From IMG/VR virus record IMGVR_UViG_3300045988_151219, positions 74,124 through 138,123 of that record: a stretch of DNA of 64,000 nt. One strand, written 5' to 3'. Position 1 is the stretch's first letter. Each line of letters opens with the position of its first letter. Position numbers and translations under genes: made by a program. This stretch comes from a virus. A model generated the notes under the pieces. It worked only from the letters and a program-made list of their open reading frames with translations, made no database searches and was not told the origin of the DNA. Shown piece by piece: positions 4,885-48,583 of this stretch.

Positions 4885-4894
4885 TATATTATAC
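4885..4894 (-). promoter_or_regulatory. Class B promoter-like motif (minus strand CAGTATAATATAAGAG)
   Basis: Plus-strand tatattatac sits in the gap between stop 4889 and ATG 4855; one of 10 intergenic copies. Confidence 0.45.
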
Positions 4895-9363: not shown

Positions 9364-10560
9364 TTAAACACTTTCTTTATATAATATGGCGTCATATTCG
9401 TTAGACGATAAACCCATTCCTTTTTCTGTCAGATAAAAAGCAATGGACGACTGTGTGCTAAAAGCTTTGAGGAAAATATAAAGCAGTTTAGACGATATAG
9501 TAAAGTTGGAACTCATCGGAGTAGTATCTCCTTCTTTCGACCCTACCAGTGTGAATTTTGAATCGCCTTTCTTTGATTTCAAAATAAATTCAACACCTGA
9601 ATCATTATAGTTAAATTCTACTTTACCTGTACTTGTCGGCAAGATAGATGAAATATCCACCAGCTTATAAAGCTGTGCATAATCAATATAGCATTTTCCT
9701 TTTGCCGCATGGATTATATTATCTATTCCGTCTCTGATAGCCTGCGGTACTGTTGAGTCTGATACTAAGAAAGCATACTCAAAATTGGAACCTTTAATGA
9801 CTTTCCTCTTTGTCACTACTGTCTCGTCTGTCTCCAATATCTCAAGCTCTTCTTCTACCTCTGATAAGACATTCCTAAGCACGTTTAAATCTTTCACTTT
9901 TAAATCCATATTGCTGAAAGATTTTCTGCATGAAATGTTACCCCACATATAAGAAGCATACGCTATGTCTTTGTCACACAGAATACGTCTTTCTGCCGGT
10001 GATACTGCATTATTAACTACTGGCGTAAAGTCTTTTACTACAGACAGCAAGTCTATTGAGTTAAGAGACTGCTCTTTGTGAACACTGTCTTTAAACATAA
10101 ATTTACTGTTGTCTACTGTATATGTTTCTAAAACGATATCTCCACCAAACAGCTTTAATTTATAATTGTCTCCGTCTTTGAAAATAACCGTCTTATTCCC
10201 TATAGCTCTTGAAAGCTTGTCTAAATAGTCTGTCGGTATGACGATATCTTCCGTCAGCACATTCTCTACATTTATTCTATCTACTTCATACTTGAAATAA
10301 ACGTCAAAGTCTGTAATATAGAATTGTACTTTGTCTCCTTCAGGATGTATCAAAATAGCTTTTGAAATGACGTCTCTTCCTGATACTACAGATAATGTCT
10401 TCGCTATTTTTATTAAAAACTTGAACTGCACCCCTGAAAACTTAATGTGAGGTGCTGTAATCTCTTCTTCTACCGTTCCAAAGTTGGACAAGTCTACGTC
10501 TTCCGTATTGTCCATTATAATATTGTCTAATTCGATTTCATTGAACACTGTCTCTTCCAT
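9364..10560 (-). CDS. Sliding-clamp (DnaN beta-like) protein
   Basis: 398 aa. The layout FKFLIKIAKTLSVVSGRDVISKAILIHPEGDKVQFYITDFDVYFKYEV...IVIPTDYLDKLSR resembles DnaN domain I, and the gene sits between nuclease and clamp-loader genes. Confidence 0.5.
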   Translation of the reverse strand: MEETVFNEIELDNIIMDNTEDVDLSNFGTVEEEITAPHIKFSGVQFKFLIKIAKTLSVVSGRDVISKAILIHPEGDKVQFYITDFDVYFKYEVDRINVENVLTEDIVIPTDYLDKLSRAIGNKTVIFKDGDNYKLKLFGGDIVLETYTVDNSKFMFKDSVHKEQSLNSIDLLSVVKDFTPVVNNAVSPAERRILCDKDIAYASYMWGNISCRKSFSNMDLKVKDLNVLRNVLSEVEEELEILETDETVVTKRKVIKGSNFEYAFLVSDSTVPQAIRDGIDNIIHAAKGKCYIDYAQLYKLVDISSILPTSTGKVEFNYNDSGVEFILKSKKGDSKFTLVGSKEGDTTPMSSNFTISSKLLYIFLKAFSTQSSIAFYLTEKGMGLSSNEYDAILYKESV

Positions 10561-20035: not shown

Positions 20036-20849
20036 TAGTCTTAATCAACCAGGCTCTATCTTCTAAAGAGATACTCTCACTACGTTCTAATATCATAGGA
20101 ATGTTATTCTCTAAACAATAATGAGCTATCCGTAAAAGTTGAAGTTGCAGTTTACCACTATTAATATACGTTTCTGAATGCCTATCCAGATGTGACCCCT
20201 GCTTAACAAAATAAGGAATTGAGTTTAAGTGAACCAAAGAAGCATTGCTTAAAACCTTGTTCAAATAAGTCTTGTCTGTTAAGTCATCTCCATCAGCGTA
20301 AGCATGTTCCGTATCATATGTTATATATACGTTTTTGTAGTTTCCCTGTAACTGGAGTAAGTTCTTTACTACACCTATCTTAGTAGACTTTTTAGACCCT
20401 GGGTCGTTCTCATAAGTAAATTTTATTTTCTTTGAGCTTTGTCTATAAAATTCCTGACTAATATAAGAAAGCTCTTTGATATTTTCCTCATAAGACAGTT
20501 CAGGATTATATGCTCCGCAATGAGATACAAGATAAATGTTTATTCCATACTTGTCTACCATAAAAGACATTTTCTTATCTATATCTAAACAGTATTTTAA
20601 GATAAAAGCTTTATGAGTTTCTTTAATAAGAGTAAAAATAAAAGGTAAATGTATTACTATATTCACATTATCACTTGAACTTTTATTCTTTACAAGATAT
20701 TTACTCATTTCTAAGAATCGCTGATATCTCGGAACTTCCCATTGTGTAGGTGAAGATAAAAACATTTGAAACGTTCTTACTCCTTGAGTAAAAGCTTCTT
20801 TAAAGAAATCTACATTATCAACATGTACTCCGATTAAGTCGTACTGCAT
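20007..20849 (-). CDS. AP endonuclease IV-like (xylose-isomerase TIM barrel)
   Basis: VIHLPFIF, VSHCGAY, YENDPGS, YDTEHAYADGDDL, LVHLNSIP...GSHLDRHS parallel the Nfo metal-ligand motifs. Confidence 0.65.
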   Translation of the reverse strand: MQYDLIGVHVDNVDFFKEAFTQGVRTFQMFLSSPTQWEVPRYQRFLEMSKYLVKNKSSSDNVNIVIHLPFIFTLIKETHKAFILKYCLDIDKKMSFMVDKYGINIYLVSHCGAYNPELSYEENIKELSYISQEFYRQSSKKIKFTYENDPGSKKSTKIGVVKNLLQLQGNYKNVYITYDTEHAYADGDDLTDKTYLNKVLSNASLVHLNSIPYFVKQGSHLDRHSETYINSGKLQLQLLRIAHYCLENNIPMILERSESISLEDRAWLIKTIEDKFYAAK

Positions 20850-22075
20850 ACCTTGCCCTCTTTTTTCTGTGACTTAGCTCTTATATCATAAATAGCATTT
20901 TTAAGCTCATCAGCCTTATCCGTTTTCTCCCACGGGAAAATAACATTTCCAAAGAACCCTATTTTAGCCGTCATAGCATAATTCCAATCTGTAGGATGTC
21001 TTAAGTTAAGCTCTCTTTCTATCCCTGCCGGCGTTAAGTCAAATACCTGTCTAACTGCTCTTAAGATAATAGATGTAGGTATGTCTGATGTTCCAAAGCA
21101 TTTTATATTAACGGAACAGGGATTTTCTACACCAATAGCATAAGAAAGCTGTACTTCTACTTTATGAACAAGACCGGAAGCTACTAAATTCTTTGCTACA
21201 TATCTTGCCATTAATGCTCCTGATATATCCTGCTTGGTCGGGTCTTTACCATTCATAGAACCCCCACCAGCCGGAAAATACATACCATAAGAATCTACAA
21301 TAATTTTTCTTCCTGTTAATCCAGAATCTACAGCCGGACCAAACTCTGTAAATGACCCTGTAGGATTGATATAAAATCTCTTAACATCTTTAATATCAAA
21401 TCCGCTTGACTGTAATATCGGTGCAATGATTGTCTCTTTTACTCTTTTCCTTAACTCTGTTATTCCTATGTCTTTTGTTGAAGCTATAGAAATAACCACC
21501 GTGTCTACAATAAGTTTTTCTAATCCTCTATTATATCTTATTGTTACTTGAGCTTTTCCATCAGGATAAAAGGGATTGCCTAAATCAGCTAAAGCTACCT
21601 CGGTCATTCTGCATGTAAGCTTTCTTGCTAATTCAATAGGCAGCGGCATAAAGTTAGGTGTTTCATCAATAGCTCCCCCACATACTAACCCCTGGTCACC
21701 CGCTCCCTGTGTTTCAGACTGCTTTCCTCTAACATAAGTATCTTCAACACCTTGGTTAATCTCTTCTGATTGATTAGTTACTCTTACTTCTATTGATACT
21801 GTGTCATAACTAAAGCCTTTAGATGGGTCTATATAACCTAATGATTTAATAGCTTCTCTTGCTACTTTTTCATAAACACAAAAATACTTAGACTTTACTT
21901 CCCCCATAATAAGTAAAAAATCTTTACATACTGCACATTCAATTCCTACGTGTGCTTCTGAATCGTTAGCTAAAATATCATCCATAATTGACATAGCGAT
22001 AAAATCACACATTTTGTCCGGATGTCCTACACATACCGATTCAGAAGTAAATAAATAGCCTGTAACCTTATTCAT
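20834..22075 (-). CDS. metK: S-adenosylmethionine synthetase
   Basis: FTSESVCVGHPDKMCD, GAGDQGL, DGKAQVT, GGGSMNGKDPTKQDISGALMARYVAKNLVASGL. Confidence 0.95.
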   Translation of the reverse strand: MNKVTGYLFTSESVCVGHPDKMCDFIAMSIMDDILANDSEAHVGIECAVCKDFLLIMGEVKSKYFCVYEKVAREAIKSLGYIDPSKGFSYDTVSIEVRVTNQSEEINQGVEDTYVRGKQSETQGAGDQGLVCGGAIDETPNFMPLPIELARKLTCRMTEVALADLGNPFYPDGKAQVTIRYNRGLEKLIVDTVVISIASTKDIGITELRKRVKETIIAPILQSSGFDIKDVKRFYINPTGSFTEFGPAVDSGLTGRKIIVDSYGMYFPAGGGSMNGKDPTKQDISGALMARYVAKNLVASGLVHKVEVQLSYAIGVENPCSVNIKCFGTSDIPTSIILRAVRQVFDLTPAGIERELNLRHPTDWNYAMTAKIGFFGNVIFPWEKTDKADELKNAIYDIRAKSQKKEGKVCSTT

Positions 22076-22233: not shown

Positions 22234-22473
22234 TTAGTTTTTATCTCTATATAATTTTAAATAATCAGAAACTAATTCACGCATATTTTCTGCAATATGA
22301 TGAATGAAATCACTATCAGAAACATTATCAGGAATATTATATTTCCACTCACCATCTTTATTGTATCTGTTTCGCAAGTCATTTAATACTTGAAAGACTT
22401 TCTCGTCTGATATAATAATTTCCGATTTATTCTCCATCTCGTGATTTATTGATATTAGTAATAAGCTCTTCAA
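22234..22473 (-). CDS. Hypothetical protein
   Basis: 79-aa ORF. Confidence 0.4.
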   Translation of the reverse strand: MKSLLLISINHEMENKSEIIISDEKVFQVLNDLRNRYNKDGEWKYNIPDNVSDSDFIHHIAENMRELVSDYLKLYRDKN

Positions 22474-23137
22474 TAGGTGTATTCATAACTTCATCAACAT
22501 CACCCTTATCAGCGTAAGTCACTCTTGAATCCCACTCTTCAATGGGGTCATCGTACTTATTAATAACTTCTTTGAAAGCTTCTGAAATATAACCATTGTT
22601 TACACTTTTAGTAGGTTCTACTTCTTCATCTATAGTTTTAAATGAAAATTCCTTTTTCCCTACTTTAGAGAAGTAATCCCCTATACGTGTATAAGCAAAA
22701 GCTCCTAAAGGCTGTTTACTGCCTATGGCTCCAACAAAAGAGTCCTCTCTTGTAGAAATTAATTTAGCTTTTCCTTCGCTGTCAACAAATAAAATAGAAT
22801 CCTGTTTGTACTTAATACCTAATTTCAATCCTAATTTAAATAAAGTGTTTTCTTCTTCTTTAGGTGCAAAGACTACTAAAGAATCTTCATCTACTACTAC
22901 AGATGAACCATCTTCTTTTTTCTCTACATAGCTTCCTTTAATTTTGTTGAACCCATAGTTAGCTGCTCGAAAATATCTTTGCAGCTCTTTAAAGTTCTTT
23001 CTATTTTCTTGAGGTGTGTTTTCATTCCTATTTGCGGAAATGAACAACAACACATCCCCACGGTCAAAATGCTGCTTAATTCTTCCTAAACTTGCTTCGC
23101 ATATCTTCATATTGTTGAACGTATCTTTTAATGACAT
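22427..23137 (-). CDS. Tandem paralog 3 of an MSLKxTF...EASLGR...FISANRNE family
   Basis: Collinear similarity to the two upstream copies along the whole length. Confidence 0.6.
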   Translation of the reverse strand: MSLKDTFNNMKICEASLGRIKQHFDRGDVLLFISANRNENTPQENRKNFKELQRYFRAANYGFNKIKGSYVEKKEDGSSVVVDEDSLVVFAPKEEENTLFKLGLKLGIKYKQDSILFVDSEGKAKLISTREDSFVGAIGSKQPLGAFAYTRIGDYFSKVGKKEFSFKTIDEEVEPTKSVNNGYISEAFKEVINKYDDPIEEWDSRVTYADKGDVDEVMNTPIEELITNINKSRDGE

Positions 23138-23765
23138 AATAATTACCTCTTTCTTTATTTAACCTTTTTGTACTTCTATTATCCCATTCAGTTAATCCGT
23201 CTTCATAACTATTTATAACAGACCTAAATGCTTCTTGTAGAAAGCCCCGCATATATTGTCTTTCAGGCTCTACTGACTCCAGAATACTGAATGAGAATTG
23301 CTTCTTTCCAATAGTAGAAAAATAATCTACCACTCTTGTATAAATAAACCTACCTAATTCTATAGCAGAATCAGTTAGTAAATTATAGTATTTTGCTTTT
23401 CCTTCACTATTTATAAAGAGAATAGCTTCTTGTTTATATCTTCTTCCTAACTGTTTACCTAATCTTAATAAAGTTATTTCATCTTTAGGTTTTCCATAGA
23501 CTATAAGAGAATCCTCTTCTACAGTAACTGTAGTACCATCTTCTCTATTTTCTACATAGCTTCCTTTGATTTTATTATACCCAAAATTAGAATCATAAAT
23601 ATAATGCTGTAACTCTTTAAAAGCTTTCTTGTTTTCCTGGATTGTACTTTCATTCCGATTAGCTGAAATAAATAAAATACAATCTCCATTATCGTAATGC
23701 TGCTTTAGTCTACCTAAACTTGCTTCATATAATTTTATATTGCTGAAAGTTTCTTTTAAAGACAT
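23076..23765 (-). CDS. Tandem paralog 2 of the same family
   Basis: The first 22 aa are nearly identical to copy 1. The C-terminal tail overlaps the start of copy 3 by 62 nt. Confidence 0.6.
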   Translation of the reverse strand: MSLKETFSNIKLYEASLGRLKQHYDNGDCILFISANRNESTIQENKKAFKELQHYIYDSNFGYNKIKGSYVENREDGTTVTVEEDSLIVYGKPKDEITLLRLGKQLGRRYKQEAILFINSEGKAKYYNLLTDSAIELGRFIYTRVVDYFSTIGKKQFSFSILESVEPERQYMRGFLQEAFRSVINSYEDGLTEWDNRSTKRLNKERGNYYVIKRYVQQYEDMRSKFRKN

Positions 23766-23766
23766 T

Positions 23767-24468
23767 TTACTCTTTCCTATTTTGTTCCACTATTTCTTTT
23801 ATTGCTTTCTCAAAAGAAGTTTTGCATATTTCTTTAACTTCAAAATCTTCCTCAACACTCCTATCCCATACTGCTAAAGGATTAGTTGAAGACTCCAATA
23901 ACTCTATAAAAGATTCTGAAAGTAACCTATCACCTAAGTTATGTTTAGGTTTTACTTCTTCTACTGTCTTAAAAGTAAAATGTCTCTTTCCTATCTTAGA
24001 AAAATAATCCCCTATCTTTATAGGACTAAATTTACCTACTGATTTCTTAGAACCTAAACTACCTATCTTAGTTCCTTCTTTAGTAGCGTAAAATTGAGCT
24101 TCTTTCTTACTATTGATAAAAAGTATAGAGTCCTGATTAAATCTTATTCCTAACTGGATACCTAATTTAAATAAGATATTTTCTTTATCTGCCGGAGCAA
24201 ATACTACTAAAGAATTTTCCGAAACAGGAACTTTTTCTCCATTACTGTTTTCTTCTACGTAATGTCCTTCTATCTTATTATAGCCAAAATTAGCTATCTT
24301 TACATAACGTTGAAGCTCTTTATAATTCTTCTTATTCTCTTTTTCTGAATTTTCATTTCTGTTTGCACTTATAAAGAGTAAACAATCTCCTTTTTCTAAG
24401 TGCTGCATAAGCCTTCCTAAGCTTGCTTCATATAATTTTATATTGCTGAAAGTTTCTTTTAAAGACAT
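23767..24468 (-). CDS. Tandem paralog 1 of the same family
   Basis: MSLKETFSNIKLYEASLGRL...LLFISANRNEN...FGYNKIEGHYVE...SLVVFAP. Confidence 0.6.
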   Translation of the reverse strand: MSLKETFSNIKLYEASLGRLMQHLEKGDCLLFISANRNENSEKENKKNYKELQRYVKIANFGYNKIEGHYVEENSNGEKVPVSENSLVVFAPADKENILFKLGIQLGIRFNQDSILFINSKKEAQFYATKEGTKIGSLGSKKSVGKFSPIKIGDYFSKIGKRHFTFKTVEEVKPKHNLGDRLLSESFIELLESSTNPLAVWDRSVEEDFEVKEICKTSFEKAIKEIVEQNRKE

Positions 24469-29478: not shown

Positions 29479-29554
29479 TGGTGGAAGTATCAGGACTTGA
29501 ACCTGCATCTGACGCTTATAAGGCGTCTGCTCTAACCGGTTGAGCTATACCTCC
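29479..29554 (-). tRNA. trnI-UAU: tRNA-Ile(UAU), CCA encoded
   Basis: Acceptor GGAGGTA/TACTTCC, D arm AGCTCAACCGGTTAGAGC, anticodon arm GACGC-CTTATAA-GCGTC, T arm GCAGG-TTCAAGT-CCTGA (the last pair is not perfect), ACCA end. Confidence 0.85.
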
Positions 29555-29902: not shown

Positions 29903-30352
29903 TTAAAGCTCATGTTCTTGATTAAATAAAATATGTTTAATTTTATTTATATTTTTAAATGCCTCTTCTTCCCTCATAAAACAATTACCGATTTTAACAT
30001 TAAGTAAATCAATCATATCTCCAGAAAATGAAGAACATACTACTCCTATAGTGTAGTTATCGTCAAAATTAGAAGTAAGTTCATTTGAAGACTTTCGCCT
30101 AAAATATACATAAAAATATCTACCATTCAATTTAGGTCTATATTCAGGCACATCAATTTTCATTCGCTCAAAATTTTCAATTATTAATTTCCAGTCGTCG
30201 GCTTCTTTATCTGATTTAGCATCATATAATTTAGAGTCTTTAAAATAATAATCCAAAGAATCCCACCCTTTAGAAGTAATTGTAAATATTTCTCCTTCAA
30301 GTACACCCAGTTTCTTTTGTAGTAGGTCTATAACCTCTGATTTTAATGTCAT
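29903..30352 (-). CDS. GNCF-motif family protein, member 1
   Basis: C-terminal KIGNCFMREEEAFKNINKI and N-terminal MTLKSEVIDLLQKKLGV are shared with 33665-34096 and 34249-34650. Confidence 0.55.
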   Translation of the reverse strand: MTLKSEVIDLLQKKLGVLEGEIFTITSKGWDSLDYYFKDSKLYDAKSDKEADDWKLIIENFERMKIDVPEYRPKLNGRYFYVYFRRKSSNELTSNFDDNYTIGVVCSSFSGDMIDLLNVKIGNCFMREEEAFKNINKIKHILFNQEHEL

Positions 30353-30378
30353 AATATACTCCTCCTCTTTTCTTTAAA

Positions 30379-30744
30379 TTATTTATTATCTTTAATGACT
30401 TTAATTTTTTCGACTACTTTATCAGCTACTTTATCTAAATTATCACCCAGATTTTCTATATTTTCTTGTGTGACATATTTTGCTACTAACATTTTATATG
30501 CCGTGTCTCTATCAGGAATTATTATAAAAAGAAAAAGTAAAATACAGCTAATTCCACCTAAATATTTACCTACTCTTTTAAACTGTATAGAATCTTCAAT
30601 ATCTTCGTTTAGATTCAAATATAATAATATAACAAGAAAAGCACCAGCAAAACTAAGAATAAGTCCTAAATTAATTAAGCTTGAAAGCTTTCCAAGTAAT
30701 TCAATGAAATAAAATAGCCAAGGTGAAATAATAGGCTCACTCAT
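30379..30744 (-). CDS. Membrane protein (2-3 TM)
   Basis: Helices WLFYFIELLGKL, LILSFAGAFLVILLYL, GGISCILLFLFIII. Confidence 0.5.
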   Translation of the reverse strand: MSEPIISPWLFYFIELLGKLSSLINLGLILSFAGAFLVILLYLNLNEDIEDSIQFKRVGKYLGGISCILLFLFIIIPDRDTAYKMLVAKYVTQENIENLGDNLDKVADKVVEKIKVIKDNK

Positions 30745-31129
30745 TTAAAGCTCCTTCTACAGATAATCTTTGTAAACTAATATTAAGATTTACAAACTTC
30801 CATTTCTTGATAACAGATTTCTTATAATCTAAATAATTTTTAACTTTCTTTTCTATGTCTTTAAGCAGTTTAACTTTTACTCTATTCATAGCTAAATTTA
30901 CTCCATAATCTTCATCAAAAACATCTAATTCATGACATTTAGCTACGCATAGATACTGGTCTTTTAGAGTTAGCAACTCATTTCCAGAATCAAAGTAATT
31001 ATATAATAAATCTTGTATTCCCTCTATATAAGCTGTAACAAGTCTCTTGTTTGGATTGATGAGGACACAAACACGTATCTTTCGATTAATGCCATCTATC
31101 TTAATCCTACGCATAATATACTTATCCAT
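30737..31129 (-). CDS. Hypothetical protein with VAKC-x-x-x-D-x-FD motif
   Basis: CVAKCHELDVFDEDYGVNLAMNRVKVKLLK; the motif is shared with three ORFs at 35.7-37.6 kb. Confidence 0.5.
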   Translation of the reverse strand: MDKYIMRRIKIDGINRKIRVCVLINPNKRLVTAYIEGIQDLLYNYFDSGNELLTLKDQYLCVAKCHELDVFDEDYGVNLAMNRVKVKLLKDIEKKVKNYLDYKKSVIKKWKFVNLNISLQRLSVEGALNE

Positions 31130-31133
31130 AAGT

Positions 31134-31502
31134 TTACCCTACAGAACTAATTCTACGAAAATCTAAGAAAAGCTCAATATCTACTAAAATATCATCTATA
31201 ACAGTATAATACTTAGAACTTTTACCTGTCATAATATTCAAACAGTAAAACTCTTTCGTTATTACTTTAATTTCATTTAAAATTTCTTCAAAAGATTTTA
31301 AATTAGCTTCAGTTTTTCTATCTACAAAAGTATTTAGTATTAACAGATTAACATGTAATAAAGGAATTTTATCTTTACTACAAGCATCCCAATTAAGCGA
31401 TGTGTCATTTGACAACTTTTTTAATTGTGATTCAATTTTTTTCAGATATGATTTAGCACACTTACTATTACTTGGAATATTAAAATCTATTGTAGCTACC
31501 AT
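31134..31502 (-). CDS. Hypothetical protein
   Basis: 122-aa ORF. Confidence 0.45.
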   Translation of the reverse strand: MVATIDFNIPSNSKCAKSYLKKIESQLKKLSNDTSLNWDACSKDKIPLLHVNLLILNTFVDRKTEANLKSFEEILNEIKVITKEFYCLNIMTGKSSKYYTVIDDILVDIELFLDFRRISSVG

Positions 31503-31654
31503 AGTTAATTACACCTCTCCTTTATATTAAAATTAACTGTTATACATATAATCCATTATCTTAAGAAAGGAATCAACAGCATCCTTCTTAATAGTAAACT
31601 TAAGACCGCTAAAAGTTAGTTTACCTGTAAACTTTAATCCACCGCAAGCAGCTA

Positions 31655-31885
31655 CTACTCCAGGAGGAATCCATTCAAGCTCTTCAAATCAATTGAATCT
31701 CCTTCAGAATCCTTAAGCCGATTTATATAATTTTGATAAAAGTTTGGATTAAACCACTCTATAGGTGTTGAAATATCTTCTAACCCTTCTATTTCTCCTA
31801 AGATATCATCAGGACTGTTTTCTGATATTATCAAATCATCTATAGTCATAATATTATCTGCTTTCTTTAACAAGCTGTTCAACAA
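31655..31885 (-). CDS. Hypothetical acidic protein
   Basis: 76-aa ORF ending in a double TAG TAG; overlaps the adhesin 3' end by 32 nt. Confidence 0.4.
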   Translation of the reverse strand: MLNSLLKKADNIMTIDDLIISENSPDDILGEIEGLEDISTPIEWFNPNFYQNYINRLKDSEGDSIDLKSLNGFLLE

Positions 31886-33647
31886 TCATAGTGAGTCTTT
31901 CTACTTTATCTTTCAGCTGTTTATTTTCTTCTGTGAGTGTATTTATCTGCTCTACTAATTTCTTGTTAGAAACATAGTTAAACTGGTTACTTGATTTACC
32001 AAATTTTACTGAAAATCCGGCATTGAACATGTTGTTACCATTGCCTACAGTAGAACCTAAGCTAAACATCACATTTTCACTCGGACGGTAGAATACTCCT
32101 AAAGCTACAGCATTAGCATTTCTATAATTTCCATATCCCACAGCGAAATCCCATTTTTCTTCCGGATTAAATTCAAGCGGATGTAATGCCGCCAAGGCTG
32201 CTGAACCTGCACCTACTTTATTAACCCTATCACCTAAAAGTTTTACGTCTCTTCCTACATTAGTAATGTTATTAGTAACTTCATTGATTTTTGTGTTGAT
32301 ATTAGTAATACTATCAGAATTTTTCTTAATTGCAGCATCAAGTTTCTTATCAGCGTCAATTAAATTCTGTGCATTACTAATATACGTTGTGTGTTGATAA
32401 GCATTGTGTAATTCTGTAGTGTTTGTAGAACCAATCATATTGTGAATATTAGTATCACCAGCAATACGATTGTCTTTCTCTTTCTGTAAATCAGACGCTT
32501 TAGCTACATCTTTAATTACAACATATCCAAGCTTAGTGTCTGAATAATTATCTTTCACTTCAAGTGTAACTTTGTTGTCTTCTATATTATACTCTCCAGG
32601 TTCTACTGAATTATCCTTCAGCTTTCCTGTAAGATTGACTTTTGAACCGTCTTTCTTGACAAGAGTAATAGTTCCATCATTGTTAATAGAACCTTTTATA
32701 ACATTATTTCCATGAACTACTTCTGCCAATGAACGAAGCTGTGCTACATTGACAGCATCATCAGAACTTGTACCAGCAGCTACATTGGTAATCTGACGTT
32801 TATACTGACTGTTGCCAACACTAACAGCACCAGCTGTAGACTCCCATACGGACCATCCGGTATGCTTTGGATTAATATTCATGGTAGCAGGGTCCCACCC
32901 AAGAACTCCTTTATCAATATTTGCTAAAGACTCTTTGCCTAAAGCAATCCCGCCCTTAACATTGGTAGTTGAAAACTTTCCAATTGCAATGGCATCATCG
33001 GCGTATGTTTCTCCACCGATACCTATTACATTATCGCCTTTAACTGTCCACGCATTTATTCCAATAGAATATTTTCCATAAACATTAGTAGTAGAACTAC
33101 CTATAGCTAAAGAATCAATACCATATACGTAAGTAGAACTCCCAACAGCAACACCGTTAGAAGCAAATACCATAGCTTGTGTTCCTATAGCTACAGCATG
33201 ATAACCATGTGCTTTTGCAGTGTCACCGAAAGAGACAGCATCTTGACCGATAGCTTCAGAATTTACTCCCATTGCAACCGCTTCACCATCACCATGACTC
33301 TTTGCAGTACACCCAGAACCTACAGCTACAGAAATCCAGTTTCTACTATTATCAGCATTAGTACCATCAACTTCATTGTGATTTCCTATAGCCATAGCAT
33401 CAAAGCCTTTTACTTTATTATAAACTCCTACAGATAAACCCATAGAAGCATTTTCCATTTCCGATTCTCTACCTATCATTGTACTCCAGTTAGAGTTTTT
33501 CATTTTGAGTTTATTCCCAATGACAGTATATTCGGTACTACCTGTAACTGTGTTATTAGCTCCGTTGTCAATATCTACAGCATAAGCTGAACTTGTTAAA
33601 AGCAAGCTTACTAAAACGGCAGTAATTAAGCTCTTATTTTTCTTCAT
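31854..33647 (-). CDS. YadA-like trimeric autotransporter adhesin
   Basis: Signal peptide MKKNKSLITAVLVSLLLTSSAYA. Head repeats (AVAMGVNSEAIGQDAVSFGDTAKAHGYHAVAIGTQAMV...). Neck NVAAGTSSDDAVNVAQL. Coiled-coil stalk. Anchor GAGSAALAALHPLEF...WDFAVGYGNYRNANAVALGVFYRPS...NAGFSVKFG. Local GC is about 45% against a ~30% background. Confidence 0.85.
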   Translation of the reverse strand: MKKNKSLITAVLVSLLLTSSAYAVDIDNGANNTVTGSTEYTVIGNKLKMKNSNWSTMIGRESEMENASMGLSVGVYNKVKGFDAMAIGNHNEVDGTNADNSRNWISVAVGSGCTAKSHGDGEAVAMGVNSEAIGQDAVSFGDTAKAHGYHAVAIGTQAMVFASNGVAVGSSTYVYGIDSLAIGSSTTNVYGKYSIGINAWTVKGDNVIGIGGETYADDAIAIGKFSTTNVKGGIALGKESLANIDKGVLGWDPATMNINPKHTGWSVWESTAGAVSVGNSQYKRQITNVAAGTSSDDAVNVAQLRSLAEVVHGNNVIKGSINNDGTITLVKKDGSKVNLTGKLKDNSVEPGEYNIEDNKVTLEVKDNYSDTKLGYVVIKDVAKASDLQKEKDNRIAGDTNIHNMIGSTNTTELHNAYQHTTYISNAQNLIDADKKLDAAIKKNSDSITNINTKINEVTNNITNVGRDVKLLGDRVNKVGAGSAALAALHPLEFNPEEKWDFAVGYGNYRNANAVALGVFYRPSENVMFSLGSTVGNGNNMFNAGFSVKFGKSSNQFNYVSNKKLVEQINTLTEENKQLKDKVERLTMIVEQLVKESR

Positions 33648-33664
33648 TTCTTCTCCTCATAATA

Positions 33665-34096
33665 CTAAAATTTTGAATTGAGTTTCTTTATAATATCTTC
33701 TTTATGATTTTCAGCTTCTTCTTTTGTTCTGAAACAATTACCTATACTTACACAAAGTCTACCTAACAAGTCATCTTCATATTCAACGCATTCAATCATG
33801 TATTTATTATCATACAAAGCAAAAAAATTCTTAACTCCTATACGCCAGTATTTGTCTTTACCCTTCGGAACATAATCAGGCATTTCTATTTTTAAATTTT
33901 CAAATTGTAAAATTATATTAGCCCAATCATCAGACTCGTCTAAATATCCTGTTTCAGGCTTTTCTATGAAAAACATATGTTCAGAAAACTGATATCTCTC
34001 TTTCCTTTCATCAGGATAAGTTACAGTAAAGATAATATCATCTTTAATATTTAAAATCTCCTGTAACTAGTCAATCATATACTCTTTAAGTTTCAT
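33665..34096 (-). pseudogene. GNCF-motif family member 2 with in-frame TAG at codon 10 (34067-34069)
   Basis: ATG at 34096 reads MKLKEYMID*LQEILNIKDDIIFTVTYPDERKERYQFSEH, in frame (120 nt) with track ORF 33665-33976 (MFFIEKPE...SIGNCFRTKEEAE). The paralogs have L or N at the TAG position. Confidence 0.55.
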
Positions 34097-34248: not shown

Positions 34249-34650
34249 TTACTCCTCCATGCCTAATTTCTTGCAAAGCTCATCTATGTGAGCTTCAGCT
34301 TCTTCTTTTGTACGGAAACAATTTCCAGCATATCTATTTACCTGATGTCTTACACTATCTTTTTCAAAAATACACTGTCCAATTTTCTTATCAGAAGTGA
34401 TAAAGTAATACAAATTTCCATCAGGAGGATTATATGGAGTATATGATAAAGCTACAGACTCCCATTCACTAATAAATCTACTCCAGAAAGGATAATATTC
34501 CCATTTATCATTACTTTTTACATAAAGTAACTTATGACTAAATTTAAAAGTAAATGTGAAAGCATGCTCAAAAGTAGCTGTAAATTCTTCCTCTTCACTA
34601 ACTCCAATCTTTTTTCTTAAATTTTCTAACACTTCTTCTCTATAAGTCAT
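34249..34650 (-). CDS. GNCF-motif family protein, member 3
   Basis: MTYREEVLENLRKKIGV ... YAGNCFRTKEEAEAHIDEL. Confidence 0.55.
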   Translation of the reverse strand: MTYREEVLENLRKKIGVSEEEEFTATFEHAFTFTFKFSHKLLYVKSNDKWEYYPFWSRFISEWESVALSYTPYNPPDGNLYYFITSDKKIGQCIFEKDSVRHQVNRYAGNCFRTKEEAEAHIDELCKKLGMEE

Positions 34651-40738: not shown

Positions 40739-42523
40739 TTAACATTTTTCATAAGCTTCACACCAGTTACTTCCGAAAGCCCACTCATACTTAAATTTGA
40801 AATCTTTATATAAATCTGAAAAATCAAATAAGCTGTCTAAAAGCTCCTCTGCTTGTTTGTCTGTATAAGTCTCCGGAACTTCTATCAAGTGACTGTCAAA
40901 AACTCCCAACACCCATTGAATGTCTTTAATATCTTTTGTTCTTCTAACTACCATCTTAAAGAAATCAGCACATGAAGACTGTATAGCTGTGTTAAAAGCT
41001 CTTCGCTCATCAGCAGACTTTTCAGATTCATCAAAAGAATTTATGTTTACTAAAGTACGTCTTCTGCCAATTATCGTTTCTGTATATCCGTTCTTCCTGG
41101 TTTTTGCTATGACTTCATCTCTGAATTTAGCTAATTCCGGAAATAATGAGAAATATTTATTAACTAATTTCTGCCCATCTTCGTATGATATATTTAACGC
41201 TCTTGCAGTAGCTGCTCCGGCAGAACCAAAAATAGTGCTGAAAGAAACAACTTTAGACACATTTCTTTCTTCTTTAGAGATTTCTGTTTTACCTAATAAT
41301 CTTTTGGCTATCTCGGTGTGTAAGTCTACTCCTTTATTAAACCAGTCTAAAAGAGTTTTACAGTTAGAAAGATACGCTGCTATATAAAGTTCCGCTGATT
41401 TCCAGTCCGCATATAAGAATTTATTTCCTTTGTGAGGAATTATACTTTTTCTAAATTCAGCCGGATATGCTGAAACAATAGGGTCTTTTACATATACACG
41501 ACTTGAAGCAGTTCCATACCCAACTGATTCAAATACCGGATGAAAAGCTCCATCATCAGAAACCATTGAAGTTACTTTCTTTAAAGAGTTCTTGACTGAA
41601 AGATTATGTTTCAACTCTAAGATATTCGTTATTATTTTAGAGTTTTCAGTCTCTCCTTTATTAGCTAAGTTTTCAGAAAGCATATTTAAAGATTGTGCAT
41701 TGAATGACGGTTTCCCTTTAGGCGATTTTAAAGGTATTTCAAATTTCTTCTCATCTACTAAAAAACTATTTAAATCAGAAAAAGCGTTAGGTCTGAAAGT
41801 TTCTTTCCCTATCTTTTTACAGAAATTATTTAAGTCTATATCATACTTCTTGTTGACTGTATTTTCTATTTCAGTAAACTTGTCCGCATCAAAAAGTATT
41901 CCTCTTCCACTTGATTTAATAACTTCTGATATAAAGTCAAATTCAAGCTGCAAGACTTTTTTCTGCTGTATTATATTGTCTTTGTAATATTCCATTATCC
42001 TAAACGGTAAGACAGAATCTAAAGCGGAATATTGTAAAACCAGCTTATTTTCTATATCATATCTAAATTTTCCATCTTCATCAGGTGTAAAAATGTTTTC
42101 AAACTTTCGGATAAGAGAAGCTTTTTCCGGATATAAGTTAATAAAAATGTCTTTTAAAGCGTTTAACTCTAATTGAAAAACTCTTGCCATGATAAAAGTA
42201 TCAAAGTAAATAGGAACGGCTACTCCAAATTGGTCATATATTCTTGACAAATCAAATTGAAGGTTATGCCCTACTGCTTTAATACTTGATAAAAAATCTT
42301 TCAGAATAGATTTCTCAATATCAGAAAGTTCTGTATATGTGTCTGTTTTATTTGAATATGTTTTTATCGGTATAACTAAAGAAATATCTTCCTGCAAGTT
42401 ATATAAAGAAAGTAAAGTTATCGGAGATTTAAAATCCAAACTTTCTGTCTCTATGTCTAATCCTAAATTTTTATTCTTCCAGGTAGAAGGTATCTCACTC
42501 GGTAAAGCTAATTTTATCTGCAT
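40739..42523 (-). CDS. Family-A DNA polymerase, divergent paralog (3'-5' exo + pol)
   Basis: Exo I LGLDIETESLDF, Exo II VGHNLQFDLSRI, Exo III YSALDSV. Motif A LYADWKSAELYIAAY, motif B RNVSKVVSFSTIFGS, motif C LGVFDSHLIEV (FDS in place of HDE). Confidence 0.75.
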   Translation of the reverse strand: MQIKLALPSEIPSTWKNKNLGLDIETESLDFKSPITLLSLYNLQEDISLVIPIKTYSNKTDTYTELSDIEKSILKDFLSSIKAVGHNLQFDLSRIYDQFGVAVPIYFDTFIMARVFQLELNALKDIFINLYPEKASLIRKFENIFTPDEDGKFRYDIENKLVLQYSALDSVLPFRIMEYYKDNIIQQKKVLQLEFDFISEVIKSSGRGILFDADKFTEIENTVNKKYDIDLNNFCKKIGKETFRPNAFSDLNSFLVDEKKFEIPLKSPKGKPSFNAQSLNMLSENLANKGETENSKIITNILELKHNLSVKNSLKKVTSMVSDDGAFHPVFESVGYGTASSRVYVKDPIVSAYPAEFRKSIIPHKGNKFLYADWKSAELYIAAYLSNCKTLLDWFNKGVDLHTEIAKRLLGKTEISKEERNVSKVVSFSTIFGSAGAATARALNISYEDGQKLVNKYFSLFPELAKFRDEVIAKTRKNGYTETIIGRRRTLVNINSFDESEKSADERRAFNTAIQSSCADFFKMVVRRTKDIKDIQWVLGVFDSHLIEVPETYTDKQAEELLDSLFDFSDLYKDFKFKYEWAFGSNWCEAYEKC

Positions 42524-46399: not shown

Positions 46400-46436
46400 A
46401 ATATATATAAATAAGAGTGTAGAAATTTACACTCTT
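46400..46436 (-). terminator. Possible terminator overlapping the polA stop
   Basis: AAGAGTGTA-(6 nt)-TACACTCTT followed by an A/U-rich tract; the U-tract is weak. Confidence 0.4.
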
Positions 46437-48583
46437 TAAATTTCAAATATAGACTCTTCCTGCTCTTCTTGTACTACTTCTTCTAAAGCTTCTTCTCTAA
46501 TTTGTTCAGTAGGAACAGCTTCTACTTTAGGTGAAATAGTTCCGTCTTTATAGTTGACATTAAAATCAAAACACTTCCCCCAACAAGTTCCTATACTCGG
46601 CTCTGCTTTCATCTGACATTGCCAGTTAGGTATTGTAAACTCCATACACTTTTTAGCCAATAATAAGTTATGTATAAAGTTTTCATCATTAGGTATCGAC
46701 AAATCTATTTCATCATGAATGGTATTCATGAATCTAACCCCTGTATTTAATTTTGGATTTAACAGCTTATTCCACATTCTAAGTATGGAAAGTTTAGTTA
46801 TGTCCGCCGCTGTTGCTTGTATCTTGTCATTTATAATAGTCCGCCGTCCATAAGCTCGCATCTTTGGATTAGCAGACTCCATATAAAATTTTACTCTTCT
46901 CGGTCTCCCAAAATAAGAATAAACTGTACCTACTTTTTCTGCTCTTCTTTCTACTGTACGTACCCATTGAAATAATGTAGGTAATCCTTTTTTAAAGTCA
47001 TCTACCAGTTTTTGAGCTTCTTCTAACGGTATTTCTAATTTCTCCACGTAAGTATGTGCATTACCGCCGTAAAGCTGGGAGAAAGAAGCTACTTTAGCCA
47101 TCTTTCTTTTATGCTTATCATAATTTTCTTTTCCCCAAATCTGACAAGCGGTTTCTGCGTGTACATCTCCCCCCTGTGTAAACGGTCTGACCCATGCAGG
47201 TTCTCCTGAAATAGCAGCTGGTATTCTTAGCTCTTGTGCGTTAAAGTCAATAGCTACCCATAGACAACCTTTATCCGGCAAAAAAGAAGACCTCAAATTT
47301 AAATGCTGGTCAAATCCTTCTGCCCAAACATCAGCTTTCCGCCATGTTGAAAACAGCCAGTCTCTTATAATAATCTCGTCTTTTGTAATGGTAGATAAAT
47401 CTATGTCTTTTAATTCATGCACATAATACATGCAAGGCTCCGGCTTAGACAATGCCTGTATATTCATATGAGTAAAATATGTATTCTTCTTGTCTGAACC
47501 TGACGCCAGTCTCCCTGACGGAACATTAAAATGAATATAAGAGAAACGGCACTTTCCGTTCTGTCGAACAGCTTCATCATATAAGCTGCCAAAGAATGAA
47601 GACTGCATTTTCTTGAGTTTTGAGTATTCTACAAGCTTAGTTAAAAGCTTCGTCTCTTCTGTATTGCCTAATTTCTTTGATACAGCAGTTAATGTATTTA
47701 TATCTGTCTTCATCTGTCCGGTAGCTGTATATACTCCTGTTGTAATACCTACCGAAATTAAAGCTTCCCCTAACTGCTTAGGAGATTTTAATGTAAAAGG
47801 ATATCCTACTGTAGCGTATATCTCTGATTCTAATTTTGCTAATGCAGGCTCTATTTCATCTAATCTCGCTTTGACATAGTCTACATCAATATTTACTCCG
47901 TTATCTTCAAAGATAACAAAAGGCATTAAAATATTATTGTCTATCTTTGATGAAATTCCACCCTCTTGATAGAATTTAAAAGTCTTTGCTACTAAAGCAA
48001 AAGTTCCAATAGCATCATAGCAAGCATACTTATAACCATCTTCCGGATTAACATAATAGAAAGATGAATTAGAACCTACTGTCTCTTCAAAGGTAGGTGG
48101 CATATACCCTAAGAAATGTAAAGTGCTTTTCTTGAGTGACGGCAGCTTAACATTAGTATCCGAAAGCCATGTACACTCCATAACGTCTAAGTATTTAATT
48201 GCCTGGATATCATATCCTAACTTATAAAGCCACCGGATATCAAACTTATAGTTATAAAAGAAAACTTTCTTGCTTTCTAATAATGCTTTATACAATAAAT
48301 CAAGGGAATCTTTCCCTAAATTATTTCCCACAGCATGTTTGACTGGAATATAATATCCTTCGTCCGATGAAAAAGCTACCGAAAACCCTACTATAAATCC
48401 ATTGTCAGGGTCTAAATCGGATGTTTCAAAGTCAAGAGACATCAATTTTGCTTTATTCTCTTCAAACAGCTTTTTCAGTTCTTCTATTGATTTAATAAGA
48501 TGTGTCTTTAATGAGTTTATTCTCTCCTGATTTTCACGCACTGCTGGAATATAATGTTCGTATGCTGCTATATTCTTTGCCAA
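46436..48583 (-). CDS. polA: Family-A DNA polymerase, canonical motifs (3'-5' exo + pol)
   Basis: Exo I LMSLDFETSDLDP, Exo II FFYNYKFDIRWL, Exo III YACYDAI. Motif A VAIDFNAQELRIPA, motif B RKMAKVASFSQLYGG, motif C NTIHDEIDL. Confidence 0.9.
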   Translation of the reverse strand: MAKNIAAYEHYIPAVRENQERINSLKTHLIKSIEELKKLFEENKAKLMSLDFETSDLDPDNGFIVGFSVAFSSDEGYYIPVKHAVGNNLGKDSLDLLYKALLESKKVFFYNYKFDIRWLYKLGYDIQAIKYLDVMECTWLSDTNVKLPSLKKSTLHFLGYMPPTFEETVGSNSSFYYVNPEDGYKYACYDAIGTFALVAKTFKFYQEGGISSKIDNNILMPFVIFEDNGVNIDVDYVKARLDEIEPALAKLESEIYATVGYPFTLKSPKQLGEALISVGITTGVYTATGQMKTDINTLTAVSKKLGNTEETKLLTKLVEYSKLKKMQSSFFGSLYDEAVRQNGKCRFSYIHFNVPSGRLASGSDKKNTYFTHMNIQALSKPEPCMYYVHELKDIDLSTITKDEIIIRDWLFSTWRKADVWAEGFDQHLNLRSSFLPDKGCLWVAIDFNAQELRIPAAISGEPAWVRPFTQGGDVHAETACQIWGKENYDKHKRKMAKVASFSQLYGGNAHTYVEKLEIPLEEAQKLVDDFKKGLPTLFQWVRTVERRAEKVGTVYSYFGRPRRVKFYMESANPKMRAYGRRTIINDKIQATAADITKLSILRMWNKLLNPKLNTGVRFMNTIHDEIDLSIPNDENFIHNLLLAKKCMEFTIPNWQCQMKAEPSIGTCWGKCFDFNVNYKDGTISPKVEAVPTEQIREEALEEVVQEEQEESIFEI

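What the first reader, a model, noticed from the sequence alone, without database searches (positions are those of the whole stretch)
31854..33647. Phage-encoded YadA-type trimeric autotransporter adhesin with an extra tail after the membrane anchor
The 597-aa ORF has every TAA hallmark: a cleavable signal peptide, YadA-head SxAxG repeats, the neck DAVNVAQL, a coiled-coil stalk, and the four-strand anchor ending in GFSVKFG. It is markedly more GC-rich (~45%) than its neighbours and sits in the tRNA/paralog island, consistent with capture from a diderm host. TAAs normally end at the last barrel strand. Here about 47 further residues of heptad-like sequence follow (31857-31997, KLVEQINTLTEENKQLKDKVERLTMIVEQLVKE), and these would be periplasmic. 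A lytic-looking phage carrying an outer-membrane adhesin suggests infected-cell aggregation, superinfection exclusion or a host-range function. It also constrains the host to a diderm.
Basis: partly seen in the sequence, partly recalled or inferred. Interest (0 to 1): 0.7.

Follow-up and report, generated by a model that had tools for sequence, protein, structure and literature searches.

The report
Phage-borne Negativicutes-type trimeric autotransporter adhesin
A large tailed phage, probably of the gut bacterium Dialister, carries an intact, conserved gene for a bacterial surface adhesin; its "extra tail" is the normal periplasmic coiled coil of such adhesins in this bacterial group, but similar adhesin genes sit in several unrelated large phages, which appears not to have been described.

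Summary
The 597-aa ORF (31854-33647, minus strand) is real and is a complete trimeric autotransporter adhesin (TAA). YadA_anchor, YadA_head and YadA_stalk all score above Pfam cut-offs. It has a Sec-type signal peptide, four anchor strands, and a 47-aa helical heptad tail.

The tail is not an anomaly. All 120 best homologues carry a post-anchor extension, either a coil alone or a coil plus an SLH domain. Published work reports this for 99.8% of Negativicutes TAAs and shows the coil is needed for protein stability.

The "~45% GC" claim is wrong. The gene is 36.2% GC with GC3 of 23.5%, which is phage-like and not an outlier.

The window belongs to a 138-146 kb tailed phage with a T4-type portal and its own replication genes. 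The gene keeps its position in diverged relatives and is under purifying selection (dN/dS about 0.1, tail included).

The nearest cellular homologues are from Dialister.

The unexpected part is that relatives 57-72% identical sit in an unrelated ~259 kb phage. Head cassettes have been exchanged between the two phage lineages. IMG/VR holds 141 viral contigs with TAA relatives.

Function on the infected cell surface is inferred, not shown.

The parts
31854..33647 (-). TAA gene, 597 codons plus a TAA stop (31854-31856)
   Evidence: ORF list. Pfam anchor, head and stalk all score above cut-offs. NCBIfam YadA_autotrans gives a partial match, 9e-28.
33653..33658 (-). Shine-Dalgarno GAGGAG, 5 nt before the ATG. 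The upstream gene's stop codon (33665-33667) is 17 nt from the ATG.
   Evidence: Sequence read. No promoter stands out above shuffle expectation and no terminator is found. This suggests co-transcription with the neighbouring genes.
33579..33647 (-). Signal peptide, aa 1-23 (MKKNKSLITAVLVSLLLTSSAYA, AxA cleavage motif; no ESPR)
   Evidence: Direct reading of the sequence. AF2 gives helix 5-15 at low pLDDT. There is no PF13018 hit.
32913..33578 (-). Beta-roll head, aa 24-245 (YadA_head repeats). This is the exchangeable cassette.
   Evidence: Pfam YadA_head. AF2 strands span 33-240 with pLDDT 72-90. The head is 94% aa / 86% nt identical to the jumbo-phage P0009 head, while the stalk is 48% identical.
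32700..32795 (-). Neck, aa 285-316 (RQITNVAAG...DAVNVAQL)
   Evidence: Pfam YadA_stalk/HIM covers 285-316. The columns are invariant in the alignments. It matches the SadA and YadA necks in PDB.
32499..32699 (-). Small beta insert domain, aa 317-383, conserved across all phage and Dialister copies
   Evidence: AF2 strands at 327-379. The segment 285-400 is 80-96% identical in all relatives.
32190..32498 (-). Coiled-coil stalk, aa 384-486
   Evidence: AF2 helices at 384-404, 410-417 and 429-486.
31998..32189 (-). Membrane anchor, aa 487-550 (four beta strands, last strand ends in FSVKFG)
   Evidence: Pfam YadA_anchor 494-549. AF2 strands at 499-508, 511-523, 526-535 and 540-549. Foldseek top hits are the AtaA, Hia and YadA anchors, TM 0.61-0.66.
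31857..31997 (-). Post-anchor periplasmic tail, aa 551-597. It has a linker (551-560) and a roughly 4-heptad coiled coil (561-596).
   Evidence: Heptad core is 8/10 hydrophobic with one Asn. AF2 gives helix 561-596. It aligns with the CbpF (PDB 9gh4) post-anchor tail. dN/dS is 0-0.16. It carries no SLH domain, and no SLH remnant lies downstream.

Best explanation
The gene encodes a functional, phage-maintained trimeric autotransporter adhesin of the Negativicutes type.

Inferred pathway:
- It is co-transcribed with the surrounding genes, which lie beside the replication genes on the same strand, during infection.
- It is exported by Sec and cleaved after AYA23.
- Three protomers each contribute four strands to a 12-strand outer-membrane barrel assembled by the host BAM machinery.
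- The head, neck, insert and stalk are threaded to the cell surface.
- The last 47 residues stay in the periplasm as a short three-stranded coiled coil. This is the lineage-typical 'short periplasmic domain' that protects the trimer from degradation.

The host is a Negativicute, most likely Dialister. The most likely role is to give the infected cell a new adhesive specificity (auto-aggregation, co-aggregation or surface retention), so that lysis happens among dense susceptible cells. The head is a swappable specificity cassette shared with unrelated large phages.

Shown here: domain architecture, conservation, purifying selection, mosaicism and phage context. Inferred: export, trimerisation, timing of expression, ligand and benefit to the phage.
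For: Architecture:
- Pfam domains, PDB sequence matches, AF2 model and Foldseek anchor matches.

Tail is the norm:
- None of the 120 best homologues lacks an extension. 74 have coil-only tails (median 52 aa) and 46 have long tails, 45 of them with an SLH motif.
- In the literature, 99.8% of Negativicutes TAAs have a periplasmic domain, and deleting the coil of VtaA/E/F causes degradation and loss of function.

Phage identity:
- Two PolA genes, ligase, DnaB, Dda, UvsX and SbcCD lie in the window.
- A T4-type portal, a GH25 lysozyme and PhoH lie just outside it on 138-kb contigs.

Maintained function:
- The position is syntenic in L091 and L092, which differ by dS of about 0.22-0.24.
- dN/dS is 0.10-0.14 overall, 0.03-0.05 for the anchor and 0-0.16 for the tail.
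- A strong SD and tight packing indicate operon expression.

Host:
- The closest cellular TAAs are from Dialister pneumosintes.
- A 64%-identical copy sits on a 1.78-Mb chromosome whose IMPDH is 87-89% identical to Dialister MAGs.

Recurrence and mosaicism:
- The TAA is the only substantial DNA similarity between the window and the 22-kb jumbo-phage locus L001, which comes from a 259-kb PolB/topoisomerase phage contig.
- The window head is 94% identical to the P0009 head. The P0008 head is 85-92% identical to the P0011 head, on a window-type C-terminal module.
- 141 IMG/VR viral contigs encode TAA relatives. Among the 80 loci kept, nearly all anchor-bearing ORFs have post-anchor tails. Some contexts include multisubunit-RNAP jumbo phages.
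Against: - There are no expression, localisation or binding data.
- The head's ligand is unknown.
- The host is inferred from homology only. No CRISPR spacer or isolate links the phage to Dialister, and the candidate host chromosome is 45-50% GC against 33% for the phage.
- A virulent lifestyle is not proven. Only about 85 of 138-146 kb were examined.
- The AF2 model is a monomer of an obligate trimer, with mean pLDDT 66 and a low-confidence linker at 551-568.
- Whether a TAA can be assembled usefully within a lytic cycle is untested.
- The Dialister chromosomal copy is frameshifted and has phage-like GC3, so the direction of transfer is open.
Confidence: 0.65

Rival explanations
1. Superinfection exclusion or receptor masking. 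The phage-made fibre layer, or its mixing with or replacement of host TAAs, blocks adsorption of competing phages to the infected cell. Alternatively, shed vesicles bearing the TAA act as decoys.
For: - The gene sits among replication and small accessory genes, away from the portal region, a position where exclusion genes often lie in other phages (own knowledge).
- Two unrelated phage lineages probably sharing a host carry near-identical heads.
- The Dialister chromosomal homologue is pseudogenised in 20 contigs. That could reflect selection against a surface structure that phages use.
Against: - Known exclusion proteins are small membrane or periplasmic proteins, not 600-aa adhesins with ligand-binding heads (own knowledge).
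- Nothing shows that any phage uses a TAA as its receptor in this host.
- Tandem arrays of 2-4 different TAAs in other phages fit diversification of binding better than masking.
Confidence: 0.15
2. Conversion factor of a temperate or carrier-state phage. The adhesin benefits a long-lived infected host, as Eib-type TAAs of temperate coliphages do, rather than acting within a lytic cycle.
For: - Temperate E. coli phages do carry TAAs. Phage GER2 (Sepvirinae) has an 'adhesin' whose YadA_anchor lies at aa 296-354 of 354.
- That Eib genes are prophage-borne is my own knowledge (Sandt & Hill 2000/2001); it was not found in the held library.
- About 55-60 kb of the phage genome was not examined.
Against: - No integrase, repressor or partition gene was seen among the genes annotated in the window or the 20 kb of flanks.
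- The replication set (UvsX, Dda, own polymerases, SbcCD, tRNAs) and the single-strand gene order are typical of virulent large phages.
- The gene has no promoter or terminator of its own, unlike classical morons.
- The contigs are free-standing at 138-146 kb, with no bacterial flanks seen.
Confidence: 0.1
3. Virion component. The protein is a tail fibre or decoration built from YadA-like modules, like the 'YadA domain-containing structural proteins' of cyanophages and others.
For: Anchor-less YadA-domain proteins are bona fide virion proteins in several phages (PMC9146016).
Against: - It has a Sec signal peptide, a full four-strand membrane anchor and a periplasmic coil. This is the same build as chromosomal TAAs.
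- It lies beside the replication genes, not near the portal.
- A 64%-identical copy lies on a Dialister chromosome next to SLH porins.
Confidence: 0.04
4. Recently captured passenger gene with no function for the phage, or a tail created by a sequencing or assembly error.
For: It lies in a variable island of small paralogous ORFs and tRNAs.
Against: - dN/dS is about 0.1 across relatives with dS of about 0.23.
- GC3 is fully phage-like.
- Synteny is conserved.
- The tail is identical in many independent assemblies.
- The same class of gene recurs in other large phages.
Confidence: 0.03

Closest known systems
Veillonella parvula TAAs with a short periplasmic coiled-coil domain (VtaA, VtaE, VtaF); Bechon 2020 PMC7549365, Dorison 2026 bioRxiv 10.64898/2026.01.22.700529
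   Same: The order is signal peptide, YadA-type passenger, YadA anchor, then a coiled coil of under 100 aa after the anchor. In V. parvula the coil is required for protein stability and function. Both belong to the Negativicutes lineage.
   Different: - Those are chromosomal and about 3000 aa long.
- The window protein is phage-encoded, 597 aa, and has a plain short signal peptide with no ESPR hit.
- Sequence identity to named Veillonella and Megasphaera proteins is only about 33-35%.
SLH-bearing Negativicutes TAAs (e.g. V. parvula VtaG, 576 aa) and the jumbo-phage/Dialister copies P0009, P0010 and P0011
   Same: They are 57-72% identical overall. The head is up to 94% identical and the neck plus insert 80-83% identical. 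The tail lies at the position of their coil linker.
   Different: They continue for about 100 aa into an SLH domain (PF00395). The window clade stops at ...QLVKESR, and no SLH remnant lies downstream. The stalk (48%), anchor (57-65%) and tail (12-16%) are much more diverged than the head.
Fusobacterium nucleatum CbpF (PDB 9gh4/9gh5; PMC12012533)
   Same: It is the best solved-structure match by sequence. The alignment runs through the anchor and into a similar post-anchor heptad tail (query 448-596, E 7e-15). It is of similar size (489 aa).
   Different: It is a chromosomal gene from a different phylum that binds CEACAM1. The heads did not align significantly.
Temperate-coliphage TAAs (Eib family; 'adhesin' of Escherichia phage GER2, MG710528)
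   Same: It is a TAA with a YadA_anchor encoded in a phage genome.
   Different: - It is from a temperate Stx-type or lambdoid phage of a proteobacterium.
- Its anchor is at the extreme C-terminus with no periplasmic tail.
- It is placed among tail-fibre genes.
- It is only 29% identical over the anchor, with E of 0.07.
Phage 'YadA domain-containing structural proteins' (cyanophages, phiEco32 and others; PMC9146016)
   Same: They share YadA-like passenger modules and are phage-encoded.
   Different: Those are virion proteins detected by mass spectrometry and named only for a YadA-like domain. The cited paper does not describe a signal peptide or membrane anchor for them; that they lack both is my own reading and was not tested here. 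The window protein has both.

Membership tests
Trimeric autotransporter adhesin (type Vc secretion) | C-terminal YadA-like membrane anchor (PF03895), four beta strands per protomer | tested here: met
   PF03895 scores 43.4 bits against a cut-off of 22.7, at aa 494-549. AF2 gives four strands at 499-549. Foldseek top hits are the AtaA, Hia and YadA anchors.
Trimeric autotransporter adhesin (type Vc secretion) | Passenger built of head repeats, neck and coiled-coil stalk | tested here: met
   YadA_head scores 36.5 (cut-off 25) and YadA_stalk/neck 34.5 (cut-off 28.4). PDB matches include the YadA head 1p9h, SadA 2yo0 and AtaA 3wp8. AF2 gives a beta-roll at 33-240 and helix 429-486.
Trimeric autotransporter adhesin (type Vc secretion) | N-terminal Sec signal peptide | tested here: met
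   The sequence shows n-region KKNK, a 13-residue hydrophobic core and AYA before V24. No dedicated signal-peptide predictor was available.
Trimeric autotransporter adhesin (type Vc secretion) | Obligate homotrimer inserted in the outer membrane with the passenger on the surface | not testable with these tools
   Only a monomer model could be made. This needs biochemistry or a multimer prediction.
Negativicutes/Terrabacteria TAAs with a 'short' periplasmic domain (Dorison 2026) | More than 10 and fewer than 100 residues after the last barrel strand, mainly coiled coil, with no peptidoglycan-binding domain | tested here: met
   There are 47 residues. The a/d heptad core is 8/10 hydrophobic. AF2 gives helix 561-596. 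There is no SLH or OmpA hit.
Negativicutes/Terrabacteria TAAs with a 'short' periplasmic domain (Dorison 2026) | The domain is periplasmic and needed for protein stability | not testable with these tools
   Only indirect support is available: dN/dS of the tail is 0-0.16. The experimental basis is in V. parvula.
'Long' periplasmic-domain TAAs (coil plus SLH) | SLH domain (PF00395) after the anchor | tested here: not met
   There is no PF00395 hit. The alignment ends where P0009-P0011 enter the SLH domain. tblastn finds no SLH remnant in 30001-32100.
ESPR-type autotransporters | Extended signal peptide region (PF13018) | tested here: not met
   There is no PF13018 hit, whereas many cellular homologues have it.
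Phage virion 'YadA domain-containing structural protein' | A virion protein named for a YadA-like domain; the expectation that it lacks a secretion signal and membrane anchor and is encoded with structural genes is my own criterion, not taken from the cited paper | tested here: not met
   The window protein has both a signal peptide and an anchor and lies beside the replication genes. Presence in virions was not tested.
Eib-type prophage TAAs of E. coli | Temperate lambdoid or Stx prophage context, anchor at the extreme C-terminus, immunoglobulin binding | tested here: not met
   No lysogeny genes were seen among the annotated genes. The anchor is followed by 47 aa, unlike the GER2 adhesin. 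Ig binding was not tested.

The most novel reading that the evidence does not exclude
Large, virulent-type phages of Negativicutes in the human gut and mouth routinely carry compact, ESPR-less copies of their hosts' trimeric autotransporter adhesins. They display them on infected cells and trade the ligand-binding head cassettes among unrelated phage lineages, and with the host chromosome. On this reading phages are both users and a mobile reservoir of adhesin specificities in these biofilm communities. This would be a class of auxiliary 'adhesion' genes not described for lytic phages.
Probability: 0.4. Interest if true: 0.7.

Novelty: new member of a known kind. Interest (0 to 1): 0.5.

Why it matters
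The tail itself is ordinary. It shows only that the protein follows the Negativicutes TAA design, which narrows the host to that group.

The phage context is what matters. A full outer-membrane adhesin is kept under purifying selection in a 138-146 kb phage. Homologues occur in a 259 kb phage and in many other IMG/VR viral contigs. Head modules have been exchanged between phage lineages. Together this suggests that phages alter the adhesive behaviour of infected Dialister or Veillonella-type bacteria and spread adhesin specificities.

TAAs drive aggregation and biofilm formation in V. parvula (Bechon 2020). Phage-borne copies could therefore affect community structure, phage transmission in biofilms, and the evolution of adhesin repertoires. 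The idea can be tested directly in the V. parvula genetic system.

Tried and rejected
- tblastn of the whole protein against 50,697 GenBank phages found no match at 1e-5. Megablast of 20-44 kb also found none. At E<=1 the anchor region hit only Eib-like adhesins of temperate coliphages.
- Single-protein scans of GTDB genomes and IMG/VR found nothing, because the exact-peptide patterns are too specific. The alignment-based IMG/VR scan worked.
- Scans of IMG/VR and JGI metagenomes with the window PolA, meant to find window-lineage genomes lacking the TAA, gave none and one useless 7-kb contig. Whether the gene is core or accessory beyond the sampled clade is therefore unresolved.
- A search with the C-terminal module alone found no closer donor for the stalk, anchor and tail. 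The best hits were about 46-60% identical and all Negativicutes.
- The idea that the coil-only tail is a recent truncation leaving an SLH pseudogene was rejected: no remnant lies downstream.
- The idea that GC marks a recent capture was rejected.
- PHROG scans of ten neighbouring small ORFs gave no function.
- Literature searches for phage-borne TAAs in Dialister, Veillonella or jumbo phages returned nothing relevant. The 2026 global TAA survey never mentions phages.
- A coincidence in contig length (16,050) between clusters 1 and 2 was checked and is not a hybrid.
Full report
**1. Observation**

The ORF at 31854..33647 on the minus strand is real, at 597 aa with an ATG start. A GAGGAG Shine-Dalgarno lies 5 nt upstream of the ATG. 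The upstream gene stops 17 nt before the ATG, and the next gene's ATG lies 4 nt after the stop. No terminator-like site is found, and promoter-like sites are no more frequent than in shuffled sequence. The gene therefore looks co-transcribed with its neighbours.

Pfam gives three domains above their curated cut-offs:
- YadA_anchor at aa 494-549, 43.4 bits against 22.7.
- YadA_head, 36.5 bits against 25.
- YadA_stalk (the neck) at aa 285-316, 34.5 bits against 28.4.

NCBIfam's YadA model matches aa 142-548 at 9e-28. Sequence search of the PDB finds the YadA head (1p9h), the YadA anchor (2lme), SadA, AtaA and UspA1.

An AF2 monomer model (mean pLDDT 66) shows the following:
- a beta-roll head at aa 33-240, pLDDT 72-90;
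- a neck;
- a small beta domain at aa 327-379;
- a long helix at aa 429-486;
- four strands at aa 499-549;
- a final helix at aa 561-596.

Its best structural matches in the PDB are the membrane anchors of AtaA, Hia and YadA.

The N-terminus MKKNKSLITAVLVSLLLTSSAYA/VD reads as a classical Sec signal peptide. There is no ESPR.

Exactly 47 residues follow the last barrel strand. Their best heptad register puts L564, I568, L571, N575, L578, V582, L585, V589 and L592 in the a/d core.

The gene is 36.2% GC, not about 45%. Eight of 31 large window genes are at least as GC-rich. Its GC3 (23.5%) is below the window median of 26.2%. It only looks GC-rich beside its very AT-rich small neighbours (28%).

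**2. The tail**

All 120 best database homologues have a post-anchor extension. Seventy-four have coil-only tails of 37-99 aa (median 52). Forty-six have tails of 100 aa or more, 45 of them with an SLH motif. None lacks an extension.

The named homologues are all Negativicutes: Veillonella, Megasphaera, Negativicoccus, Acidaminococcus, Mitsuokella and Phascolarctobacterium.

This is a published feature:
- Bechon et al. [quoted passage not shown]
- Dorison et al. 2026 found periplasmic domains in 99.8% of Negativicutes TAAs.
- The same study defined a 'short' type (under 100 aa, coiled coil) and a 'long' type (coil plus SLH).
- It also showed that deleting the coil of VtaA, VtaE or VtaF causes degradation and loss of function.

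The best solved-structure match by sequence is F. nucleatum CbpF (9gh4; identified through PMC12012533). It aligns through the anchor into a very similar tail.

The tail is therefore the normal 'short periplasmic domain'. It is not an artefact: it is 96-100% conserved in at least 8 independent assemblies.

The closest relatives outside the window clade (P0009, P0010, P0011) continue from the same position into an SLH domain. No SLH remnant lies downstream in the window.

**3. Context**

The window holds the replication module of a large phage:
- two PolA-type polymerases;
- ligase;
- DnaB-like and Dda-like helicases;
- UvsX;
- SbcCD;
- a methyltransferase;
- dUTPase.

It also carries three tRNAs. 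Walking off both ends on 138-kb contigs finds a T4-type portal, a GH25 lysozyme and PhoH. No lysogeny gene was seen among the genes annotated in roughly 85 kb examined.

Relatives 95-98% identical at the protein level lie on 139-146 kb contigs. They keep the gene at the same position.

Against two relatives with dS of about 0.22-0.24, dN/dS values are as follows:

| Region | dN/dS |
|---|---|
| whole gene | 0.10-0.14 |
| head | 0.05-0.06 |
| anchor | 0.03-0.05 |
| tail | 0-0.16 |

The phage is therefore maintaining a working gene, tail included.

**4. Host**

The closest cellular cluster (34% identity, 44-aa coil tail) is annotated as Dialister pneumosintes.

A cluster 64% identical (P0010, 1659 member sequences) is chromosomal. 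It sits on a 1.78-Mb contig beside SLH porins, IMPDH and ABC permeases. That contig's IMPDH is 87-89% identical to Dialister MAGs.

This chromosomal copy is split by a 1-nt insertion, lies next to an IS110, and has GC3 of 32% against 44-58% in its neighbours. It may itself be of phage origin, so the direction of transfer is open.

The host is thus inferred to be a Negativicute, probably Dialister. No CRISPR spacer or isolate evidence was available.

**5. The unexpected part**

P0009 (72% identical) and P0011 (57% identical) are encoded on contigs of about 259 kb and about 95 kb respectively. Both sit next to a topoisomerase subunit, a dUTPase and a family-B polymerase. The TAA gene is the only substantial DNA similarity between the window and the 22-kb L001 locus from that phage.

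The similarity is mosaic:

| Region | Window vs P0009 (jumbo phage) | P0008 vs window | P0008 vs P0011 (jumbo phage) |
|---|---|---|---|
| signal peptide | 35% | 96% | 43% |
| head | 94% aa, 86% nt (aa 24-120) | 47-64% | 85-92% |
| stalk | 48% | 97% | 47% |
| anchor | 65% | 96% | 59% |
| tail | 16% | 96% | 12% |

The flanks of P0008's contig align to the window, so it belongs to the window phage type. Its head matches the other jumbo-phage variant instead.

Head cassettes have therefore been exchanged between two unrelated phage lineages. The cassettes are bounded by the conserved KLKMKNS block and by the conserved neck plus insert (80-96% identity in all copies).

An alignment-based scan of IMG/VR found 141 viral contigs encoding TAA relatives. 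In the 80 loci kept, there are 99 anchor-bearing ORFs, and nearly all have coil or coil-plus-SLH tails.

Several of these loci sit in clearly phage contexts with other replication machinery:
- a GyrB-like topoisomerase and a divergent DnaB in L129;
- PolB, SbcC and a GH66 gene in L153;
- split multisubunit RNA polymerase in L172 and L135.

Four representatives were confirmed by Pfam. Some loci carry tandem arrays of 2-4 TAAs. Local flanks of the groups share few or no genes. Different regions of one jumbo-phage family cannot be excluded, so a safe count is at least three unrelated phage types.

The TAAs in the jumbo-phage and other large-phage contexts checked are compact (roughly 440-1200 aa) and start with short signal peptides. 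Many cellular homologues carry ESPR.

**6. Mechanism**

Shown: architecture, conservation, purifying selection, mosaicism and phage context.

Inferred: Sec export, BAM-dependent trimeric barrel assembly, surface display on the infected cell, the periplasmic coil stabilising the trimer, and an adhesion or aggregation benefit to the phage.

Rivals considered:
- Superinfection exclusion or receptor masking.
- A conversion factor of a temperate or carrier-state phage. TAAs are carried by temperate coliphages such as GER2, whose anchor is C-terminal with no tail.
- A virion fibre. Phages do have YadA-domain virion structural proteins, but this protein has a signal peptide and a membrane anchor.
- A functionless passenger, which is contradicted by selection and recurrence.

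**7. Novelty**

As a protein, this is a new member of a known kind, the Negativicutes short-periplasmic-domain TAA.

Full TAAs carried in large virulent-type phages, with head exchange between phage lineages, were not found in the literature searched. No similar gene was found in 50,697 GenBank phage records. This gives the finding moderate interest.

Noticed in passing
L006 9553-11647 (Dialister chromosomal contig, 1.78 Mb): The chromosomal TAA is 64% identical to the window protein. It is split into 169 and 548 aa by a 1-nt insertion near position 10025, and the same 548-aa product is seen on 20 contigs. It has GC3 of 32% against 44-58% in neighbouring genes and lies next to an IS110 transposase. 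It may be a phage-derived, decaying copy rather than the donor.
   Followed up: partly
L153 10907-13078 (IMG/VR contig of 239 kb): A GH66 (dextranase-family) gene (E 4e-103) lies directly downstream of a 1198-aa TAA with SLH in a jumbo-phage context. It has no obvious signal peptide. This may be a biofilm-related gene pair in a jumbo phage.
   Followed up: partly
L131, L132, L110, L124, L135, L163, L166-L172: Tandem arrays of two to four different TAA genes lie on viral contigs. Some contigs also carry split multisubunit RNA polymerase genes, as phiKZ-like jumbo phages do.
   Followed up: partly
window 22427-24468 and 20834-22075: Three tandem paralogues (50-57% identical) belong to the S-AdoMet lyase family, judged from the Pfam calls on the same genes in L091 and L092. 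They lie next to a full SAM synthetase gene. SAM degradation and SAM synthesis in one phage is an odd combination.
   Followed up: no
window 1632-3794: The clamp-loader-like gene carries an intein with a LAGLIDADG endonuclease. A second intein-bearing 1405-aa gene lies just outside the window, next to the T4-type portal (L173).
   Followed up: no
window 4889-8473: A 1194-aa protein shows only weak Radical_SAM signals and has no PHROG family.
   Followed up: no
window 40739-42523 and 46436-48583: There are two PolA-family DNA polymerase genes in the same module, about 30% identical to each other.
   Followed up: no
window 29903-30352, 33665-33976, 34249-34650: A family of small paralogous proteins (27-38% identical, shared ...GNCF(R/M)(T/R)(K/E)EEA... 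motif) flanks the TAA. It has no PHROG match. The slot immediately upstream of the TAA differs between related phages (L091, L092).
   Followed up: partly
window 29479-29554: A tRNA-Ile with anticodon TAT sits in the three-tRNA cluster (Leu-TAA, Ser-TGA, Ile-TAT). All three read A-ending codons, which fits the AT-rich phage.
   Followed up: no
window 41072-41218: tblastn with the C-terminal SLH region of P0009 hits a stretch in frame inside the PolA ORF. The match is 43% over 49 aa, with E of 3e-5 in a 64-kb search. This is unexplained and may be chance or composition.
   Followed up: no
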